Virus genome (UHGV): UHGV-0377591
Source of the DNA: a virus
Reading direction: 5' to 3' (one strand)
Length of the DNA: 44,209 nt
In this document: positions 47 through 41,724 of the stretch, piece by piece
Numbering within the stretch: the first letter of the stretch is position 1
How the letters are laid out: every line of letters begins with the position of its first letter
Made by a program: the position numbers and the translations under genes
The notes under the pieces: model-generated
What the model saw: only the letters and a program-made list of their open reading frames with translations
What the model was told of the DNA's origin: nothing
Databases searched by the model: none

Positions 47-76
47 AAAAAAAAAGAAAGGGGCGTTAAGCCCCTT
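47..76 (-). terminator. Rho-independent terminator after the HTH gene (also closes the rightward ORF ending at 44)
   Basis: Stem GGGGC-GTTA-GCCCC at 60-74 preceded on the plus strand by A9 (47-55), which is a T-run on the minus strand. Confidence 0.7.
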
Positions 77-281
77 CACCGAACGCCAGCCACTTGGCGT
101 CTACTTGCAGCACTTCCGCCAGTTTAAACAGCGTCGCCGGGCGGACGTCCTGAGTTACCCCAAGTGCCAGTTGGTTAATCGCGCCCTGGGAAACGCCAGT
201 CAGGACAGCCAGACGGCGCTGGGAGATGCCGAGTTCTTTGCGGCGTTGTTCTACACGGATGCCTAGTTCAGATGGTTGCAT
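66..281 (-). CDS. XRE-family helix-turn-helix transcriptional regulator (Cro/CI-like), 71 aa
   Basis: ORF track; HTH signature ELGISQRRLAVLTGVSQGAINQL; GGAG ribosome-binding site upstream; diverges from the early operon. Confidence 0.8.
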   Translation of the reverse strand: MQPSELGIRVEQRRKELGISQRRLAVLTGVSQGAINQLALGVTQDVRPATLFKLAEVLQVDAKWLAFGEGA

Positions 282-311
282 GTCAATTACTCCTTAGTCA
301 GTTGATATGTG

Positions 312-325
312 AATAGTACCATATT
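312..325 (-). promoter_or_regulatory. Imperfect operator palindrome AATAG-TACC-ATATT upstream of the HTH gene
   Basis: Minus-strand reading gives TACTATTCACAT about 30 nt upstream of the HTH start, the same core as the class II promoters below; no good -35. Confidence 0.4.
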
Positions 326-345
326 AATTATTTTAGAAAAGCCCA

Positions 346-18813: not shown

Positions 18814-18842
18814 TTGCGCACCCCAACATAATAGGATACTAT
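18814..18842 (+). promoter_or_regulatory. Class II promoter with operator palindrome overlapping the -10
   Basis: TTGCGC (18814-18819), 17-bp spacer, TACTAT (18837-18842); AATAG-GATA-CTATT at 18830-18843. Confidence 0.5.
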
Positions 18843-18883
18843 TCACTTACACCAACAATGTTAACTCAAACAGGATCTACACC

Positions 18884-26833: not shown

Positions 26834-27535
26834 TTATTTCCTCAGGGCTTTAAGTTGCCGTTCAAATTCGGCAGGGTTCGATTTATACAGAGCTAAACGC
26901 TCCGCTTCACTCATGTCTTTAAACGCTGGTGCGGCCCCGCCGCCTTTGCCACCGGAAGCCCCGCCGCCGGAAGCTGCATTTGCTTTAATCAAATGCGAAA
27001 ACGCTTTGTGTTCACGCAGGTATTTGCGGAACTGTTCCGGGTCAGTCGTGATTACATTACCGTCTGCGCCCACAAACTTAGTAACCACATCATCACCTTC
27101 GAACTCAGTCTTAACGAACGGAGCAAGAATGTCTACTGCTTCCGGGGTAATAAAGTCACCTGCGAAAGAGCCTAACACCGCTTTACGTTCGCTGCCGAGG
27201 ATGCGCTCAGCCATTTTGGTGATGCGACCATCTTTCTCGGCTAACACCGGGTCATACTGGCTACGAATCGTCTTTTCGAACTCGTCCATCTTACCAGCGG
27301 CTTTTAGCGCCTCCTGGTGCGCGCGCTGACGTTCCTCTTCGGCCTCTTTTGCTTTACGGGCGGCTTCTTTCTTCTCCGCCAGCAATGCTTCCTGATTGGC
27401 CTTAAGTCCGGCAACTTCTTTCTCAATCATCGCCTGAACTTCTTCAGCGGTGAACATTTTTGGAGCGTCGCCACCGCCAGATTTATCTTCTGCCCCAGCT
27501 TCTTCCTGGAACGGATAGTGTAAAAAACGATTCAT
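26834..27535 (-). CDS. Scaffolding protein
   Basis: Start moved to ATG 27535 (the track start is TTG). Lys/Glu/Ala-rich coiled-coil EEVQAMIEKEVAGLKANQEALLAEKKEAARKAKEAEEERQRAHQEALKAAG. Confidence 0.7.
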   Translation of the reverse strand: MNRFLHYPFQEEAGAEDKSGGGDAPKMFTAEEVQAMIEKEVAGLKANQEALLAEKKEAARKAKEAEEERQRAHQEALKAAGKMDEFEKTIRSQYDPVLAEKDGRITKMAERILGSERKAVLGSFAGDFITPEAVDILAPFVKTEFEGDDVVTKFVGADGNVITTDPEQFRKYLREHKAFSHLIKANAASGGGASGGKGGGAAPAFKDMSEAERLALYKSNPAEFERQLKALRK

Positions 27536-27617
27536 AGTCAGTATGTCCCCTGGACGTTGGAATCCGGGCCTCCCGGATTTACATGTCAAGAATAAATTAT
27601 TCCAACATACAAGGCAA

Positions 27618-27881
27618 CTATTCCAGAATATTCCTCACGTAATCCTGCAACATGAACACTTTCAGTCTCAGTTGCCGTACACATTCGGCGTTCTGAACAT
27701 CGATAGCTAAATCCTCGTCAGCGTCGATACTTGGCGGTGCCAGTTTGCACGGCGGCTGCATCATCGTCGTATCCGGGGATGGAATTGGCGTTGGCAACGG
27801 CGTGGGACTTGAGCAGGACGCGAGCATCGTCGAAAGTGCACACGCTGCGGCCAGGCGTTTTAATGTACTTAACGACTTCAC
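27618..27881 (-). CDS. Outer-membrane spanin (Rz1-like lipoprotein), 87 aa
   Basis: GTG start with GAGG ribosome-binding site; lipobox LASC with Cys at position 23; proline-rich mature region SSPTPLPTPIPSPDTTMMQPP; starts inside the i-spanin gene in another frame. Confidence 0.7.
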   Translation of the reverse strand: MKSLSTLKRLAAACALSTMLASCSSPTPLPTPIPSPDTTMMQPPCKLAPPSIDADEDLAIDVQNAECVRQLRLKVFMLQDYVRNILE

Positions 27882-28113
27882 GGGTAATCACCTCTGATTT
27901 CGTCTTGCCTTCGTTGTCAGCGGCGGCGGCCTTAGATTCGTCCTGCTGCTGCCGTTGTGTTTTCTTCGCTAACTCAGCCTGTGCTTTCTGCTGTTGCTGC
28001 GAAACGAGATTCGCCCGGCCTTCGTTCCAGCCGCTGCGATACTGGTAGATTCCGTAGCCGTATGTCAGGAGAATGAAACATGCTCCAGCTACGACAGTTG
28101 CGTTAAGATTCAT
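27718..28113 (-). CDS. Inner-membrane spanin (Rz-like), 131 aa
   Basis: N-terminal transmembrane segment ATVVAGACFILLTYGYGIY followed by Gln-rich helical region QQQQKAQAELAKKTQRQQQ; strong AGGGGA ribosome-binding site. Confidence 0.7.
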   Translation of the reverse strand: MNLNATVVAGACFILLTYGYGIYQYRSGWNEGRANLVSQQQQKAQAELAKKTQRQQQDESKAAAADNEGKTKSEVITREVVKYIKTPGRSVCTFDDARVLLKSHAVANANSIPGYDDDAAAVQTGTAKYRR

Positions 28114-28363
28114 GTTTCCCCTTTCTCGATAAGTAAAGCCCCGCTTTAAGGCGGGGCGCTAGTCCTTATCATTTAAACATAGAAACGGCGTAATCTCAGT
28201 AAACCAGTTACTTTTTACACAAGCAATAGAGTATGGCCCTTCCGAACGCGTCAGCGTAACTACACTCAGGACTTACGTCCCGCTCCGTTACCTGCCCGCG
28301 CCGCGGTCGCTTGCTCATACTTCACAAGCTCAGGTGGAGCTTATCATATTTTCAGTGAAAAGT

Positions 28364-28379
28364 CAACTATTCGAATAGT
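28364..28379. promoter_or_regulatory. Perfect 16-bp palindrome AACTATTCGAATAGTT (everted operator half-sites)
   Basis: CTATT-CG-AATAG core; 55 bp upstream of the class II promoter. Confidence 0.5.
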
Positions 28380-28432
28380 TTATTCCAACGTTTACAATTG
28401 AGTGGAATAACTGGAATACGTAAATAAATAGT

Positions 28433-28461
28433 TTGCGCGCACCAACATAATAGGGTACTAT
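28433..28461 (+). promoter_or_regulatory. Class II promoter with operator palindrome overlapping the -10
   Basis: TTGCGC (28433-28438), 17-bp spacer, TACTAT (28456-28461); AATAG-GGTA-CTATT at 28449-28462. Confidence 0.5.
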
Positions 28462-28488
28462 TCAGTTAACTTAAACAGGAGATGAGAA

Positions 28489-29010
28489 ATGGTTACTACA
28501 GTAATTACTTTCCCTGCGTATGTAGGGGCGAAAATATGCAGGGCTAAAAATGATGTTCGCTACTATTTGAACGCTTTTTACATAGACCCTGAAGGATTGA
28601 TAGTGTCTACGGACGGTCATAGATTGTTCTGCGACAATGTGAAGACCAACGTTGAGAAAGGGACTCTCATAGACATCAAAGGGAGAGAGCCTTCTAAATT
28701 TAACTACGCGGAGGTAAACCACGACAACGGCAGTGTATCTTTCTATAACGATAATCGTGCGCTTATATGTACACTTCCGGTAGATGTTGTAGAAGGAAAC
28801 TTTCCTGACTGGAGACGCGTGGCGCACATCACACCGGGTGTTGTCGATAGTATAGGGTTCACCCTGCGTTATTTGGCAGACGCGTACAAGATTTCTAAGG
28901 CATACAAAAATGAAATTGCTCGTTTCGATTTCCAGGACCAAACCAGAGGATGCAAAATACAATTTTCAAACACGGCCTTTATGGTGTTAATGCCTGCGCG
29001 ATTTAAATAA
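28489..29010 (+). CDS. Hypothetical protein, 173 aa, encoded on the opposite strand inside the head-gene module
   Basis: ORF track; own promoter and AGGAGATGAGAA ribosome-binding site; own terminator. Confidence 0.65.
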   Translation: MVTTVITFPAYVGAKICRAKNDVRYYLNAFYIDPEGLIVSTDGHRLFCDNVKTNVEKGTLIDIKGREPSKFNYAEVNHDNGSVSFYNDNRALICTLPVDVVEGNFPDWRRVAHITPGVVDSIGFTLRYLADAYKISKAYKNEIARFDFQDQTRGCKIQFSNTAFMVLMPARFK

Positions 29011-29015
29011 AACTA

Positions 29016-29040
29016 AGGCCCCATTATGGGGCCTTTTATC
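29016..29040. terminator. Bidirectional rho-independent terminator
   Basis: AGGCCCC-ATTAT-GGGGCCT-TTTTAT. Confidence 0.75.
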
Positions 29041-29497
29041 ATCCTGGTTTAGAGACCTTCGCCGCTTTGCTTACGGCCTCCGCACCATCGGCATCAGTAA
29101 CTTTAACGAAGTATTCACCAGCCGCATTAACAGTCAGAGACAGAGCCTCTTCCGGGGCGTTCACCACTTCCTTCCCGTCTTTGTACCAGGTCAGTACATA
29201 CGGCGCTTTACCCGCCTTAACTTCGACAGTGATGGTGGCGCTACCGTCGACCAGCTCGGTGTCTTTCGGTTGCACAGAGAAATACACATCGCCAGCATCT
29301 GCCAGATACGGAATCTCATAAAGCATACCTGCCGCTGGAAGTGCAATACCGGTTTTATCTGCAAACGGCATATCATCTACCGGCGTACCCAGTACACTTT
29401 CGTCCTCAATAAATACCACGTTCTCACCAGAGCCAGACACGCGGGCGTACTGGACTACGCGTCGCGACGGTACATCAGTTACTTTGAAAAAGCACAT
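29039..29497 (-). CDS. Ig-like domain virion protein
   Basis: Motif APYVLTWYKDGKEV, paralogous in style to the 24995..25339 protein. Confidence 0.55.
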   Translation of the reverse strand: MCFFKVTDVPSRRVVQYARVSGSGENVVFIEDESVLGTPVDDMPFADKTGIALPAAGMLYEIPYLADAGDVYFSVQPKDTELVDGSATITVEVKAGKAPYVLTWYKDGKEVVNAPEEALSLTVNAAGEYFVKVTDADGAEAVSKAAKVSKPG

Positions 29498-29500
29498 AAA

Positions 29501-30124
29501 CTAAACCTCTTTCATTGAGTTAATCTTACGTAAGACGCCTTCGAAAAGGCGTGGGTCTATGCTATCGCAAAGACCTTTGTATTCATATGCTAATTCAATT
29601 TTTCTATGAAACCATGCTACGTGTGCCTCTTGAGCGGTTTCGTAAGCGCCTATTTGTTCAGATACGCCATCCACGGATACTTGAGCGATGAATCTTTTCT
29701 TTTGTTTATGGAAATGTACGCCGAGTGGGTGTTCGCCTCGAAGAGCGTCGTGGGCTGTTAGGAAAGTATTGAGGGATTTAGGGATAAAAACACAGTTAGA
29801 AGCATCGTAAACCTTATTTCCCGGGTTAAGTAAATCCTTATCTATCTGCCACCCAGGTACATAAAAATCATCAAACCAGACCTTGAAATTACTGAACACC
29901 AACCAATCGTCCGACACGCGGCAACCTATATAAGTTCTGTTTCTTTGCTGCCATTTCTTGTCGTAGCACCTCTTTAACATGTTCTTCCATACGGCGTAGG
30001 ACGCTATATGCACCCCTCCGCAACTTATTGGTGAAACATCGTTAATACCCACACCAAAAACAATTCCCATATTAAACCCTATAAGAAAACCCCATGAAGA
30101 TTGGTCGATGCCAGAGATAGGCAT
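29501..30124 (-). CDS. Putative homing endonuclease-like protein with AP2-like DNA-binding domain
   Basis: C-terminal AP2-like GVHFHKQKKRFIAQVSVDGVSEQIGAYETAQEAHVAW; N-terminal catalytic domain not assigned; true start probably internal. Confidence 0.45.
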   Translation of the reverse strand: MPISGIDQSSWGFLIGFNMGIVFGVGINDVSPISCGGVHIASYAVWKNMLKRCYDKKWQQRNRTYIGCRVSDDWLVFSNFKVWFDDFYVPGWQIDKDLLNPGNKVYDASNCVFIPKSLNTFLTAHDALRGEHPLGVHFHKQKKRFIAQVSVDGVSEQIGAYETAQEAHVAWFHRKIELAYEYKGLCDSIDPRLFEGVLRKINSMKEV

Positions 30125-34804: not shown

Positions 34805-35047
34805 TTAGTAGCCGCATTCGTTCTCCTCTTTAGCAATACGTTGCTCTGTTTTAGTGATACCCCGGCGCGTGAATAACACCGGGCTTGTCTTAACGTGCGT
34901 CATCAGACGATTGTTATAAATTACGTGGCGCTCGCAATCAACGTCTTTGCTGTACTTCGCAATCGTCATTTCGTTGATGCCGGTTTGTCGGCATGTCTCA
35001 GCCATCGTGCCGTATTCTTTAATCAGGTTCGGAATGCTGGTAATCAT
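34805..35047 (-). CDS. Small HTH-containing protein, 80 aa
   Basis: Start moved to ATG 35047 (GAGGAA upstream; ATGA coupling); helix-turn-helix-like MAETCRQTGINEMTIAKY. Confidence 0.5.
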   Translation of the reverse strand: MITSIPNLIKEYGTMAETCRQTGINEMTIAKYSKDVDCERHVIYNNRLMTHVKTSPVLFTRRGITKTEQRIAKEENECGY

Positions 35048-35214
35048 CCTAAGAAATTCCTCGTTGTCCACATCGCATTCGGATATTTGTTATCACGGTC
35101 CTGCACTACGGCAATCATGTTTCCTCGTTGCACAAGACAGAAGTGCCGCTGTTGCTCGCCGTTGTATCGACGCCAGATTGCTTCTTCTATTGCGGCGTTG
35201 ATGTCACTGAACAT
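35044..35214 (-). CDS. Hypothetical small protein, 56 aa (not in the ORF track)
   Basis: Manual translation MFSDINAAIEEAIWRRYNGEQQRHFCLVQRGNMIAVVQDRDNKYPNAMWTTRNFLG. Confidence 0.35.
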   Translation of the reverse strand: MFSDINAAIEEAIWRRYNGEQQRHFCLVQRGNMIAVVQDRDNKYPNAMWTTRNFLG

Positions 35215-36686: not shown

Positions 36687-36769
36687 CTTCTCTACTCCGT
36701 TCTCGTTGTCGATGGAGTAAATATAGTAGGGTCGCAGGTAATAGTCAACTAGTCATTGCAGAAAATAGA

Positions 36770-36803
36770 TAAAAAAAAATCCCGGCTGGGTCAGGGCCGG
36801 GAT
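36770..36803 (-). terminator. Strong rho-independent terminator after the endolysin gene
   Basis: Stem ATCCCGGC/GCCGGGAT with a 9-nt loop, followed on the minus strand by T9. Confidence 0.85.
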
Positions 36804-39620: not shown

Positions 39621-39763
39621 CAGCTACCTCCAGTTCGCCGTAAACATGCTCGTTGTCGCCGCTGCATACACTGCAAACTCGCAACTCAGCATAAAGCTGT
39701 TCCAGTTTCTCAACCGTCAGATACTTATACATCTTCCGTCTCTCCTCTCGTTTGTGTAAATGA

Positions 39764-39792
39764 ATAGTAGCCTATTCTATCTTAATGTGCAA
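39764..39792 (-). promoter_or_regulatory. Class II promoter (leftward) with operator palindrome
   Basis: Minus strand TTGCAC, 17-bp spacer, TACTAT; plus-strand AATAG-TAGC-CTATT at 39763-39776. Confidence 0.5.
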
Positions 39793-41056: not shown

Positions 41057-41090
41057 AACCCTAACTCCTCTGTCTCGTTTCGATAAGTGA

Positions 41091-41119
41091 ATAGTATCCT
41101 ATTATATTGGGGTGTGCAA
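41091..41119 (-). promoter_or_regulatory. Class II promoter (leftward) with operator palindrome
   Basis: Minus strand TTGCAC, 17-bp spacer, TACTAT; plus-strand AATAG-TATC-CTATT at 41090-41103; extra half-site GAATAGTT at 41122-41129. Confidence 0.55.
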
Positions 41120-41492: not shown

Positions 41493-41521
41493 TTGATTTC
41501 CCATTATTCGCAATGTATACT
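41493..41521 (+). promoter_or_regulatory. Sigma70-like promoter for the rightward regulator/primase operon
   Basis: TTGATT (41493-41498), 17-bp spacer, TATACT (41516-41521); no operator palindrome. Confidence 0.5.
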
Positions 41522-41553
41522 TGGTTTCGTTAACTGATGATGAGGGGTTGAGA

Positions 41554-41724
41554 ATGACACAGAATGAAGTAGCTGAGCGTATTGGGGTTACTCGCCGCAC
41601 GCTTAATAACTGGTTAAAGAGTGGGAAGTTCCCGGATTGTTGTATCCGCATTATGGGCCGCCGGCAGCCGGGTACGTTTGACCCGGAGAAAGTGGAAGCG
41701 TGGATTAAGGAGAACGTGAAATGA
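41554..41724 (+). CDS. Small HTH DNA-binding protein (AlpA/excisionase-like fold), 56 aa
   Basis: Start moved to ATG 41554 (GAGGGG upstream). MTQNEVAERIGVTRRTLNNWLKSGKFP. Confidence 0.6.
   Translation: MTQNEVAERIGVTRRTLNNWLKSGKFPDCCIRIMGRRQPGTFDPEKVEAWIKENVK

What the first reader, a model, noticed from the sequence alone, without database searches (positions are those of the whole stretch)
27597..28418. Direct repeats and GGAATA clusters bracket the spanin cassette
The 10-mer TTATTCCAAC occurs at 27597-27606 and 28380-28389, flanking the spanin genes. Both flanks also carry closely spaced GGAATA hexamers: GGAATA-ACT-GGAATA on the plus strand at 28404-28418, and GGAATA-TTCT-GGAATA plus a third copy on the minus strand at 27597-27634. 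These could be recombination scars from cassette insertion or binding sites for a regulator acting on the spanin and insert promoters.
Basis: seen in the sequence. Interest (0 to 1): 0.45.

Follow-up and report, generated by a model that had tools for sequence, protein, structure and literature searches.

The report
GGAATA repeats mark two phage promoters
The GGAATA repeats on both sides of the spanin genes of this Kagunavirus phage are real, non-random and conserved, but they lie inside two internal promoters (one for the spanin leader, one for the scaffold/capsid genes) and are most likely binding sites for an unidentified regulator, not scars of a gene insertion.

Summary
In detail: every motif is at the stated coordinates. 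The exact 10-mer repeat is not remarkable on its own, because the window has 120 such pairs within 1 kb. The GGAATA clustering is: 6 copies in 821 bp (0 of 300 shuffles), and it is the only non-homopolymer hexamer with two tight clusters.

The window is an E. coli Kagunavirus (Guernseyvirinae). Read on the minus strand, each cluster sits in a sigma70-type promoter. P_sp (TTGACT-17-TGaTAAGCT, 28366→28338) drives a structured ~200-nt leader that ends in a hairpin just before the spanins. P_sc (TTGCCT-17-TATTCT, 27617→27589) drives the scaffold/capsid mRNA, which begins with a conserved 5' hairpin.

Each promoter carries one inverted repeat GGAATA-N3-TATTC (centre about −48.5 at P_sp, −14.5 at P_sc) and one tandem hexamer pair. 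Across three genera the half-sites are invariant while the centre and flanks vary, including synonymous sites of the last o-spanin codons.

More distant relatives keep the spanins and both promoters but not the GGAATA motifs, so "insertion scars" is rejected. The variable + strand insert is a separate moron whose junction lies at 28418/28419. A regulator operator is the best reading, but binding is untested. Ordinary biology, modest novelty.

The parts
27597..27606 (+). 10-mer copy 1 (TTATTCCAAC; GTTGGAATAA on the minus strand). It lies in the 17-nt spacer of P_sc, at about -24..-15.
   Evidence: spacer position
28380..28389 (+). 10-mer copy 2. It lies upstream of P_sp at about -58..-49, a position not equivalent to that of copy 1.
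27590..27603 (-). Inverted repeat GGAATA-ATT-TATTC, centre about -14.5 of P_sc. Its right half is part of the -10 hexamer TATTCT.
   Evidence: 2 sites, 0.01 expected; invariant in Kagunavirus, Jerseyvirus and Cornellvirus
28373..28386 (-). Inverted repeat GGAATA-AAC-TATTC, centre about -48.5 of P_sp.
   Evidence: half-sites at least 90% conserved in 49 unique sequences, central 3 nt variable (AAC / CTT / AAT)
27619..27634 (-). Tandem GGAATA-TTCT-GGAATA (10-bp period), at about -52..-37 of P_sc. It lies inside the last codons of the o-spanin gene (R-N-I-L-E-stop; TAG at 27620-27618).
   Evidence: every third-codon position of the last 6 codons is invariant across Kagunavirus and Jerseyvirus, against 1 of the 19 codons before them
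28404..28418 (+). Tandem GGAATA-ACT-GGAATA (TATTCC-AGT-TATTCC on the minus strand; 9-bp period), at about -87..-73 of P_sp. It is the last backbone sequence before the moron junction.
27589..27617 (-). P_sc, predicted sigma70-type promoter of the scaffold/major-capsid operon: -35 TTGCCT (27617-27612), 17-nt spacer, -10 TATTCT (27594-27589), +1 near 27582.
   Evidence: rank 27 of about 88,000 positions in a PWM scan; divergent relatives keep TTGCAT or TTGTTA, a 17-nt spacer, and TATTCT or TATATT, with a different spacer sequence
27563..27577 (-). Conserved hairpin TCCGGGAGGCCCGGA near the 5' end of the predicted P_sc transcript.
   Evidence: the closing pair occurs as GC, UA and AU; by eye, L069 reads GACGGG/CCCGTC
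27545..27555 (-). Small hairpin GUCC-AGG-GGAC that holds the scaffold Shine-Dalgarno sequence; scaffold ATG at 27535-27533.
   Evidence: by eye, L066 reads GACC..GGTC
28338..28366 (-). P_sp, predicted sigma70-type promoter with an extended -10: -35 TTGACT (28366-28361), 17-nt spacer, TGa-TAAGCT (-10 at 28343-28338), +1 near 28331.
   Evidence: rank 7 of about 88,000 positions; TnGAyT-N17-TGnTAmsCT is conserved in three genera
28125..28331 (-). Structured ~200-nt leader RNA ending in a GC-rich hairpin (28157-28138) followed by UUUACUU, 24 nt before the i-spanin ATG. Relatives annotate it as a 36-aa ORF (28208-28318), which is not conserved.
   Evidence: z = -2.97; 7 pairs with compensatory changes; no Rfam family
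27618..28113 (-). Spanin genes: i-spanin 27718-28113 and the overlapping o-spanin 27618-27761 (or a longer ORF reaching 27881).
   Evidence: phrog_2536 (2e-55) and phrog_5672 (1e-29)
28419..29037 (+). Moron, not part of the motif system: promoter TTGCGC (28433-28438)-17-TACTAT (28456-28461), a 173-aa beta-clamp-domain-like gene (28489-29010), and a bidirectional terminator (29015-29035).

Best explanation
The repeats are cis-regulatory DNA of two conserved internal promoters on the minus strand of a Kagunavirus genome.

P_sp (28366→28338) starts a structured ~200-nt leader that ends in a hairpin just upstream of the spanin genes. P_sc (27617→27589) starts the scaffold/major-capsid mRNA, which opens with a conserved stabiliser-like 5' hairpin.

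The GGAATA hexamers form one 14-bp inverted repeat (GGAATA-N3-TATTC) plus one tandem pair at each promoter. I take them to be recognition sites of a dimeric sequence-specific DNA-binding protein, probably phage-encoded, that couples the two promoters. Bound at P_sc it would cover the spacer and the -10 hexamer, which predicts repression or timing control. Bound at P_sp it would sit at about -48 and further upstream, which predicts activation or modulation.

Shown here: the motifs are non-random, they show a footprint-like conservation pattern, both regions are promoter-like with conserved -35/-10 geometry, and the motif positions are as stated. Inferred: that a protein binds, which protein it is, and the direction of its effect.

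The 10-mer identity is a by-product of the shared half-site plus three flanking bases. It is not a target-site duplication.
For: - Clustering statistics.
- Identity of the window and gene order.
- P_sp and P_sc rank 7th and 27th of about 88,000 positions in a sigma70 PWM scan. Both are intergenic or at a gene end, and both point at the downstream genes.
- In diverged IMG/VR relatives, P_sc keeps TTGCAT or TTGTTA, a 17-nt spacer, TATTCT or TATATT, and the 5' hairpin, while the spacer sequence is replaced.
- At P_sp, 49 unique sequences from three genera give the consensus TATTCCAgTTATTCC....GGAATAaa.TATTC.AA.AGT.GACT...TG.TAagCT. The hexamers, the -35 and the extended -10 stay at 90% or more, while the flanks and the 3-nt centre of the inverted repeat vary.
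- The two hexamers that lie in o-spanin codons are invariant at synonymous sites, while neighbouring codons vary. The one variant seen (AGG→CGG) leaves GGAATA intact.
- Insert-less phages keep the tandem pair right after the Hoc terminator, so it belongs to the backbone.
- Distant lineages carry other repeated heptamers (TTGCGAG; TTTGCGAAAG), in direct and inverted copies, at the equivalent promoter. This is what regulator/operator pairs that change together would look like.
- DNA-binding candidates exist: an Xre-type HTH, an HTH_17 protein and a NinH-like protein. Only the NinH-like protein is well conserved (64-70%) in all three genera that keep the inverted repeat. Lambda NinH is a dimeric Fis-like DNA binder and bender (PMC7166090).
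Against: - There is no experimental transcription start site or binding data. The one Kagunavirus RNA-seq paper is too coarse (PMC12645636).
- The inverted repeat sits at non-equivalent positions in the two promoters (-14.5 and -48.5).
- The tandem pairs differ in orientation and period (10 bp and 9 bp).
- Natural isolates tolerate single changes in individual hexamers (L021, L028, L029, L031, L044, L055).
- More distant relatives run both promoters without any GGAATA, and Cornellvirus type 2 has the motif only at P_sc. The sites are therefore dispensable for promoter function as such.
- Part of the conservation could come from the -10 hexamer (TATTCT) and from o-spanin coding.
- The sequence set was picked with a degenerate motif pattern. 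The unbiased alignments show the same pattern, however.
Confidence: 0.55

Rival explanations
1. The regions are promoters and nothing more. The hexamers are AT-rich promoter context (-10 hexamer, spacer, UP-like upstream DNA, o-spanin codons) kept by ordinary promoter and coding constraint. No dedicated binding protein exists, and the resemblance between the two regions is shared ancestry or chance.
For: Both regions score as sigma70 promoters. Distant relatives keep the promoters without GGAATA. One half-site is the -10 hexamer itself, and two hexamers are coding. Single-hexamer variants occur in nature.
Against: The tandem pair at -87..-73 of P_sp is too far upstream for an UP element, by my own knowledge of UP elements at about -40..-60. 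It is at least 90% conserved while its flanks vary. The half-sites are invariant with a variable 3-nt centre. Synonymous sites are invariant. GGAATA is the only non-homopolymer hexamer with two tight clusters.
Confidence: 0.25
2. The motifs are the loading site of a Q/AlpA-like processive antiterminator. A small phage protein binds the GGAATA elements at P_sp, or in the spacer of P_sc, joins RNA polymerase, and lets it read through the leader hairpin/terminator into the spanin and capsid genes, as lambda Q does at pR'-tR'.
For: The layout promoter, ~200-nt leader, GC hairpin with U-rich tail, then lysis genes and head genes resembles lambda pR'/6S RNA/tR' (my own knowledge). At P_sc the inverted repeat lies between -35 and -10, where the binding elements of AlpA and lambda Q lie (PMC7969949).
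Against: Pfam finds no Q-family or AlpA-family protein among the small ORFs. The HTH_17 protein does not match AlpA chains in the PDB and is absent from Cornellvirus, which keeps the site. The P_sp spacer is not conserved between genera. The U-tract after the leader hairpin is poor in Jerseyvirus and absent in Cornellvirus.
Confidence: 0.08
3. The motifs serve the variable + strand insert. They either regulate the moron promoter or act as a conserved boundary sequence that guides recombinational exchange of morons.
For: The moron junction is exactly at 28418/28419. GGAATA at 28413-28418 lies at -55..-50 of the moron promoter, the same distance as GGAATA at 28386-28381 from P_sp (read from the sequence). 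In Cornellvirus a second + strand moron sits next to the region-A hexamers.
Against: Insert-less phages keep the pair (K1ind2, ER17, f18SE, sidste, STP03). Region A in this window has no insert. The moron carries its own promoter motif, found at six places in the genome with no GGAATA nearby.
Confidence: 0.08
4. One reading: the 10-mers are target-site duplications or recombination scars left when a spanin cassette was inserted.
For: An exact 10-bp direct repeat brackets a 773-bp segment that holds the leader and the spanins.
Against: The window has 120 such 10-mer pairs within 1 kb. No empty site was found among 494 related records. In Jerseyvirus the two 10-mers differ. Distant relatives have the spanins at the same place without the repeats. 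No transposase or integrase is nearby. The copies sit at functional promoter positions.
Confidence: 0.02

Closest known systems
Activator-dependent phage late or middle promoters with an upstream dyad (Mu C / Mor sites centred near -43.5; P2 Ogr / P4 Delta sites centred near -55). Recalled from my own knowledge.
   Same: A sigma70 promoter with imperfect hexamers, plus a conserved inverted repeat upstream of -35 (centre about -48.5 at P_sp), in front of late (lysis and head) genes of a phage that has no RNA polymerase of its own.
   Different: No C, Mor or Ogr homologue was found. The same dyad also overlaps the -10 of a second promoter. Extra tandem hexamers are present. Binding is untested.
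Lambdoid Cro/CI-type operators overlapping promoters
   Same: A short palindrome with conserved half-sites and a variable centre that overlaps the -10 and spacer of P_sc. A small Xre-type HTH gene is present in the genome.
   Different: The Xre-type protein more probably uses the other palindrome (GAATAGTAcCCTATTAT), two copies of which sit at its own gene. It is only 39-50% identical across genera in which GGAATA is invariant.
Lambda pR' - 6S RNA - tR' - lysis genes with Q antitermination; P. aeruginosa AlpA at PalpB-tB (PMC7969949)
   Same: A promoter, a short terminated leader of about 200 nt, then lysis genes followed by head genes. A binding element lies in the promoter spacer at P_sc.
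   Different: No Q or AlpA homologue was detected. Only the spanins follow the leader; holin and endolysin are about 9 kb away. The terminator quality is not conserved between genera.
Morons of HK97/HK022-type phages (promoter + gene + terminator set into a late operon). Recalled from my own knowledge.
   Same: Segment 28419-29037 has its own promoter, one gene and a terminator, is antisense to the head genes, and is replaced by unrelated genes or is absent in relatives.
   Different: This describes the neighbouring insert, not the GGAATA motifs themselves.
5' stabiliser hairpins of highly expressed mRNAs (ompA, T7 gene 10 leader). Recalled from my own knowledge.
   Same: A GC-rich hairpin a few nucleotides from the predicted 5' end of the scaffold/capsid mRNA, with compensatory changes.
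   Different: The 5' end has not been mapped and stabilisation has not been tested.

Membership tests
sigma70-type bacterial promoter | -35 and -10 hexamers close to TTGACA/TATAAT, separated by 16-18 bp | tested here: met
   P_sp is TTGACT-17-TAAGCT with TG at -15/-14. P_sc is TTGCCT-17-TATTCT. They rank 7th and 27th of about 88,000 positions. The tool's stricter 9-of-12 scan did not list them.
sigma70-type bacterial promoter | Hexamers and spacing conserved in relatives while the spacer sequence drifts | tested here: met
sigma70-type bacterial promoter | Transcription start about 7 nt downstream of the -10 hexamer | not testable with these tools
   No TSS data are available. The RNA-seq paper PMC12645636 gives only per-gene time classes.
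Operator / transcription-factor binding site | Dyad or direct-repeat symmetry with conserved half-sites and a less conserved centre | tested here: met
   GGAATA-N3-TATTC occurs at both promoters. The centre is AAC, CTT, AAT or ATT.
Operator / transcription-factor binding site | Over-representation and clustering beyond composition | tested here: met
   (0 of 300 and 1 of 300 shuffles)
Operator / transcription-factor binding site | A cognate DNA-binding protein that binds the site | not testable with these tools
   Only candidates were found: NinH-like (34805-35071, minus strand), Xre-type HTH (66-281, minus strand) and HTH_17 (41521-41724, plus strand).
Target-site duplication / insertion scar | Relatives with an empty site holding a single repeat copy | tested here: not met
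   None among 494 records or 58 IMG/VR loci.
Target-site duplication / insertion scar | The two flanking repeats stay identical to each other across relatives that carry the insertion | tested here: not met
   Jerseyvirus has AGTGGAATAA and TAAGGAATAC. The repeats are absent in L061, L066 and L069 although the spanins are present.
Target-site duplication / insertion scar | A mobility gene (transposase, integrase or homing endonuclease) inside the bracketed segment | tested here: not met
   The segment holds only the leader and the two spanin genes.
Q / AlpA-type antitermination module | A Q-family or AlpA-family protein encoded by the element | tested here: not met
   Pfam scan of the small ORFs; PDB sequence search with the HTH_17 protein.
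Q / AlpA-type antitermination module | An intrinsic terminator between the promoter and the regulated genes | tested here: inconclusive
   In Kagunavirus there is a hairpin followed by UUUACUU. The stem covaries, but the U-tract is poor in Jerseyvirus and absent in Cornellvirus.
Intrinsic terminator (leader 3' hairpin, 28157-28138) | A GC-rich stem followed by a U-run | tested here: met
   7 GC pairs, tail TTTACTTATC. Met for this window only.
Rfam RNA families (for the leader) | A score above the family gathering threshold | tested here: not met
   The best hit is wcaG at 18.5 bits against a threshold of 42, E = 2.

The most novel reading that the evidence does not exclude
The GGAATA sites, the structured leader with its 3' hairpin, and a small phage DNA-binding protein together form a previously undescribed late-gene switch shared by Guernseyvirinae. 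The NinH-like Fis mimic is the only candidate protein whose distribution fits. In this reading, one protein bound at GGAATA dyads releases or activates the spanin-leader promoter and gates the scaffold/capsid promoter, possibly with read-through of the leader terminator. It would be functionally analogous to lambda Q or Mu C but would use unrelated parts.
Probability: 0.12. Interest if true: 0.6.

Novelty: new member of a known kind. Interest (0 to 1): 0.33.

Why it matters
Guernseyvirinae (Kagunavirus, Jerseyvirus, Cornellvirus) are among the phages most often isolated for E. coli and Salmonella therapy and biocontrol, yet their transcription programme is essentially unmapped.

- **Testable elements.** Two internal promoters, a candidate operator shared by them, and a structured leader that is routinely mis-annotated as a 36-aa protein give concrete targets for 5'-end mapping, footprinting and engineering. 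Examples are tuning capsid or lysis timing, or choosing safe insertion points.
- **Cargo slot.** The work defines the exact junction (28418/28419) of a hot spot where unrelated antisense genes are swapped. That is useful for anyone inserting cargo genes.
- **Caveat.** None of this overturns current understanding. It is ordinary phage regulatory architecture that had not been described for this group.

Tried and rejected
- **Rfam and tRNA scans.** Rfam scan of 27000-29200 at E up to 10 gave only noise. No tRNA or tmRNA in the window.
- **Built-in promoter scan.** It did not list P_sp or P_sc because of its 9-of-12 rule. I therefore wrote a PWM scan from remembered sigma70 frequencies; its scores are approximate.
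- **IMG/VR pattern scan.** Scanning with GGAATANNNTATTCNNNNNNTNGAYT was too degenerate. It returned 120+ mostly unrelated contigs and was dropped.
- **Literature.** Nothing on GGAATA in these phages and nothing on Jerseyvirus late promoters. The only published motif is the PHIRE "phage promoter" tgAATAGTa-ccTATTat of fBC-Eco01 (PMC9825357). It is a different element: the early or moron promoter, six copies here.
- **Host-factor sites considered from memory and rejected.** ArgR box (half-site spacing off by 1 bp), Fis core (14 bp instead of 15 bp between G and C), RcsAB box (9 of 14), DnaA box (7 of 9), H-NS nucleation site (7 of 10). None was tested with a tool.
- **Replication origin or pac site.** Rejected for lack of iteron-length repeats and because of the location in the head-gene module.
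- **Q/AlpA idea.** No homologue found.
- **HTH_17 protein as the binder.** Weakened because Cornellvirus lacks the protein but keeps the site.
- **AlphaFold on the moron protein.** Run without an alignment, it gave pLDDT 33, so no fold search was run.
- **IMG/VR search with the NinH-like protein.** It reached only close relatives, so it could not test co-occurrence in lineages without GGAATA.
- **Covariance model of the leader core.** It found only the flanking sequences in Cornellvirus type-1 leaders.
Full report
**1. Observation**

- TTATTCCAAC at 27597-27606 and 28380-28389.
- GGAATA-ACT-GGAATA at 28404-28418 (+).
- On the minus strand, GGAATA-TTCT-GGAATA at 27619-27634 and a third copy at 27598-27603.
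- A sixth hexamer inside the second 10-mer (28381-28386, minus strand).

The 10-mer occurs only twice in the window. That is a weak fact, because the window contains 120 exact 10-mer direct pairs within 1 kb (shuffles give 45.6 +/- 9).

The hexamer clustering is strong:
- 6 of 30 copies lie in 821 bp (0 of 300 shuffles).
- Three copies within 40 bp occur twice (1 of 300 shuffles has even one such cluster).
- GGAATA is the only non-homopolymer hexamer of 2080 with two such clusters.
- The longer pattern GGAATA-N3-TATTC occurs exactly twice, once per cluster, with 0.01 expected.

**2. Context**

The window is an E. coli phage of the genus Kagunavirus (Guernseyvirinae), about 98% identical to fPoEco01, fFiEco02 and Schulenburg.

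Gene order on the minus strand is: head morphogenesis, HNH endonuclease, Hoc-like decoration protein, [a + strand gene at 28489-29010], a 375-bp "intergenic" stretch, i-spanin/o-spanin, scaffold, major capsid protein. Holin and endolysin lie about 9 kb away.

The spanins sit next to the scaffold gene in all 494 related records found, across Kagunavirus, Jerseyvirus and Cornellvirus. They also do so in 58 IMG/VR loci.

**3. Region A (27540-27640) read on the minus strand**

The sequence reads GGAATA-TTCT-GGAATA-G-TTGCCT-TGTATGTTGGAATAATT-TATTCT-TGACATGTAAA-TCCGGGAGGCCCGGA-...-GTCCAGGGGAC-...-ATG (scaffold).

TTGCCT-17-TATTCT is a sigma70-like promoter, which I call P_sc. It ranks 27th of about 88,000 positions in a PWM scan built from remembered sigma70 frequencies.

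The decisive evidence is comparative. Diverged relatives keep the hexamers, the 17-bp spacing and the downstream hairpin, but replace the spacer, which is the part that holds the "10-mer":
- L061 and L068: TTGCAT-17-TATTCT.
- L066, L067 and L072: TTGTTA-17-TATATT.
- L069 and L070: TTGCAT-17-TATATT.

The hairpin shows compensatory changes: its closing pair occurs as GC, UA and AU, and by eye L069 reads GACGGG/CCCGTC.

With +1 near 27582, the three hexamers lie at about -52..-47, -42..-37 and -21..-16. The inverted repeat GGAATA-ATT-TATTC is centred at about -14.5, and its right half belongs to the -10 hexamer.

The first two hexamers lie in the last six codons of the o-spanin gene (R-N-I-L-E-stop). 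All their third-codon positions are invariant across Kagunavirus and Jerseyvirus, against 1 of the 19 preceding codons, most of which vary. The single variant seen (AGG→CGG) leaves GGAATA intact.

**4. Region B (28330-28420) read on the minus strand**

The sequence reads TATTCC-AGT-TATTCC-N17-GGAATA-AAC-TATTC-GAATAG-TTGACT-N17(..TGA)-TAAGCT.

TTGACT-17-TGaTAAGCT is an extended -10 promoter, which I call P_sp. It ranks 7th in the PWM scan.

Forty-nine unique sequences from three genera give the consensus TATTCCAgTTATTCC....aa.tgtAaAt..tGGAATAaa.TATTC.AA.AGT.GACTttT.......aaT.TG.TAagCT. The hexamers, the -35 and the extended -10 are kept. The flanks and the 3-nt centre of the inverted repeat (AAC, CTT or AAT) are free. 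That set was picked with a degenerate pattern, but the unbiased alignments show the same thing.

With +1 near 28331:
- The inverted repeat is centred at about -48.5.
- The tandem pair lies at -87..-73.
- The 10-mer lies at -58..-49, which is not equivalent to its position in P_sc.

The two promoters share GAATAGTTG(A/C)CT, that is GAATAG plus the -35 hexamer. The paralogous alignment of the two regions is therefore through the -35 hexamer, not through the 10-mer.

**5. What P_sp transcribes**

From about 28331 to the i-spanin RBS runs a ~200-nt leader that folds better than shuffles (-78 kcal/mol, z = -2.97). It ends in a 7-GC-pair hairpin followed by UUUACUU (28157-28138).

RNAalifold on 19 Kagunavirus and Jerseyvirus sequences gives 23 pairs. 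Seven of them have compensatory changes, including three in the 3' hairpin.

The 36-aa ORF annotated here in several relatives is not conserved. It is frameshifted in L015 and L018, loses its ATG in L020, and its start region is deleted in Jerseyvirus.

No Rfam family matches. A covariance model of the core finds only the flanking GCGACCGC...CGGAAGGGCC in Cornellvirus type-1 leaders. The U-tract is poor in Jerseyvirus and absent in Cornellvirus, so "terminator" holds for this window only.

**6. The insert**

Homology to insert-less phages (K1ind2, ER17) stops at 28418, the last base of the tandem pair. In those phages the Hoc terminator comes next.

In other relatives the same slot holds a 68-aa gene, an adenine methyltransferase or a 180-aa gene.

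All these inserts bring the same promoter and 5' UTR: TTGCrC-17-TACTAT followed by ...AACTTAAACAGGAG. This is the "phage promoter" motif tgAATAGTa-ccTATTat reported for fBC-Eco01 (PMC9825357). It has six copies in this window, two of them at the Xre-type HTH gene.

The insert is therefore a moron with its own promoter, and the GGAATA pair belongs to the backbone.

One curiosity: GGAATA at 28413-28418 lies at -55..-50 of the moron promoter, the same distance as GGAATA at 28386-28381 from P_sp.

Cornellvirus has a second antisense moron between the spanins and the scaffold gene, inserted just upstream of GGAATAGTTGCC.

**7. Why not scars**

- No empty site exists in any relative.
- The two 10-mers are not identical to each other in Jerseyvirus.
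- Lineages L061/L068, L066/67/72 and L069/70 have the spanins in the same place and both promoters, but no GGAATA.
- The segment carries no mobility gene.

**8. Mechanism**

The footprint-like conservation, the dyad symmetry, the synonymous-site constraint and the far-upstream tandem pair argue for a sequence-specific binding protein rather than bare promoter context.

Lineages L066/67/72 and L069/70 carry different repeated heptamers (TTGCGAG; TTTGCGAAAG), in direct and inverted copies, at the equivalent promoter. That fits regulator/operator pairs that have diverged together.

Three small DNA-binding candidates are encoded:

| Candidate | Window position | Conservation |
|---|---|---|
| Xre-type HTH | 66-281, minus strand | 39-50% identical across genera |
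| HTH_17 protein | 41521-41724, plus strand | 85-88% Kagunavirus vs Jerseyvirus; undetectable in two Cornellvirus genomes that keep the P_sc dyad |
| NinH-like protein | 34805-35071, minus strand, just upstream of terS | 64-70% identical in all three genera |

Lambda NinH is a dimeric Fis-like DNA binder and bender (PMC7166090).

I therefore rank NinH-like first, weakly.

Predicted logic (inference only): occupancy of the dyad at -14.5 blocks P_sc, while occupancy at -48.5 and -80 modulates P_sp. This would couple spanin-leader and capsid transcription.

A Q/AlpA-like antitermination reading is attractive by layout (PMC7969949) but lacks a detectable protein.

**9. Verdict**

What is there is ordinary phage regulatory architecture not yet described for this subfamily, plus a structured leader RNA that deserves its own look.

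Noticed in passing
window 28125-28331 (minus strand): Conserved, structured ~200-nt leader or sRNA between P_sp and the i-spanin gene. It has compensatory base changes and no Rfam family. Several GenBank records mis-annotate it as a 36-aa hypothetical protein (28208-28318). An invariant single-stranded CGGAAGGGCC is shared by Kagunavirus, Jerseyvirus and Cornellvirus type-1 leaders.
   Followed up: partly
window 28489-29010 (+): The moron gene encodes a 173-aa protein. Residues 16-116 match domain II of the E. coli beta sliding clamp (PDB 3pwe/1mmi residues 144-252, E about 3e-5). Records name it either 'sliding clamp' or 'RusA-like resolvase'. It is a half-size clamp fragment of unknown role. 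AlphaFold without an alignment failed (pLDDT 33).
   Followed up: partly
window 311-327, 355-371, 18828-18844, 28447-28463, 39762-39778, 41089-41105: Six copies of the palindromic promoter motif GAATAGTAcCCTATTAT (TTGCrC-17-TACTAT on the other strand). Two copies sit in front of the Xre-type HTH gene, which suggests an autoregulated early-promoter operator. The same ~60-bp promoter and 5' UTR unit precedes unrelated morons in different phages.
   Followed up: partly
L066, L067, L072 (about 250-330 nt upstream of the i-spanin start) and L069, L070: Distant relatives have other repeated heptamers at the equivalent spanin-leader promoter: CTCGCAA x2 followed by TTGCGAG x2, or TTTGCGAAAG x2 with an inverted copy. 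The layout is analogous to the GGAATA sites, but the 'word' is different.
   Followed up: no
window 27545-27555 (minus strand): The scaffold Shine-Dalgarno sequence sits in a small conserved hairpin GUCC-AGG-GGAC. By eye, L066 has a compensatory change (GACC..GGUC). This may be a translational control element.
   Followed up: partly
window 36720-36790 (minus strand): Another strong internal promoter (TTGACT-17-TATATT, rank 2 in the PWM scan) directly after a terminator (cccggc...gccggg followed by a T-run). It shares TAGTTGACT with P_sp but has no GGAATA repeats.
   Followed up: no
L009 (W5_chr3) 2018-2281 and L010 (TS6) 2007-2279: Cornellvirus carries an extra + strand gene between the scaffold gene and the spanins. 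Both intergenic regions that flank the spanins are therefore hot spots for antisense morons.
   Followed up: partly
window 28326-28342: Inverted repeat AAGCTC-CACCT-GAGCTT overlapping the -10 hexamer and the start site of P_sp. The scan lists it as a + strand terminator-like site. In Jerseyvirus the -10 hexamer TACGCT is instead directly repeated 3 nt downstream. Function unknown.
   Followed up: no
window 29501-30124 (minus strand): An HNH endonuclease gene lies between the head-morphogenesis and Hoc-like genes. It is present in only some relatives, so it is a second variable slot in the head module.
   Followed up: no
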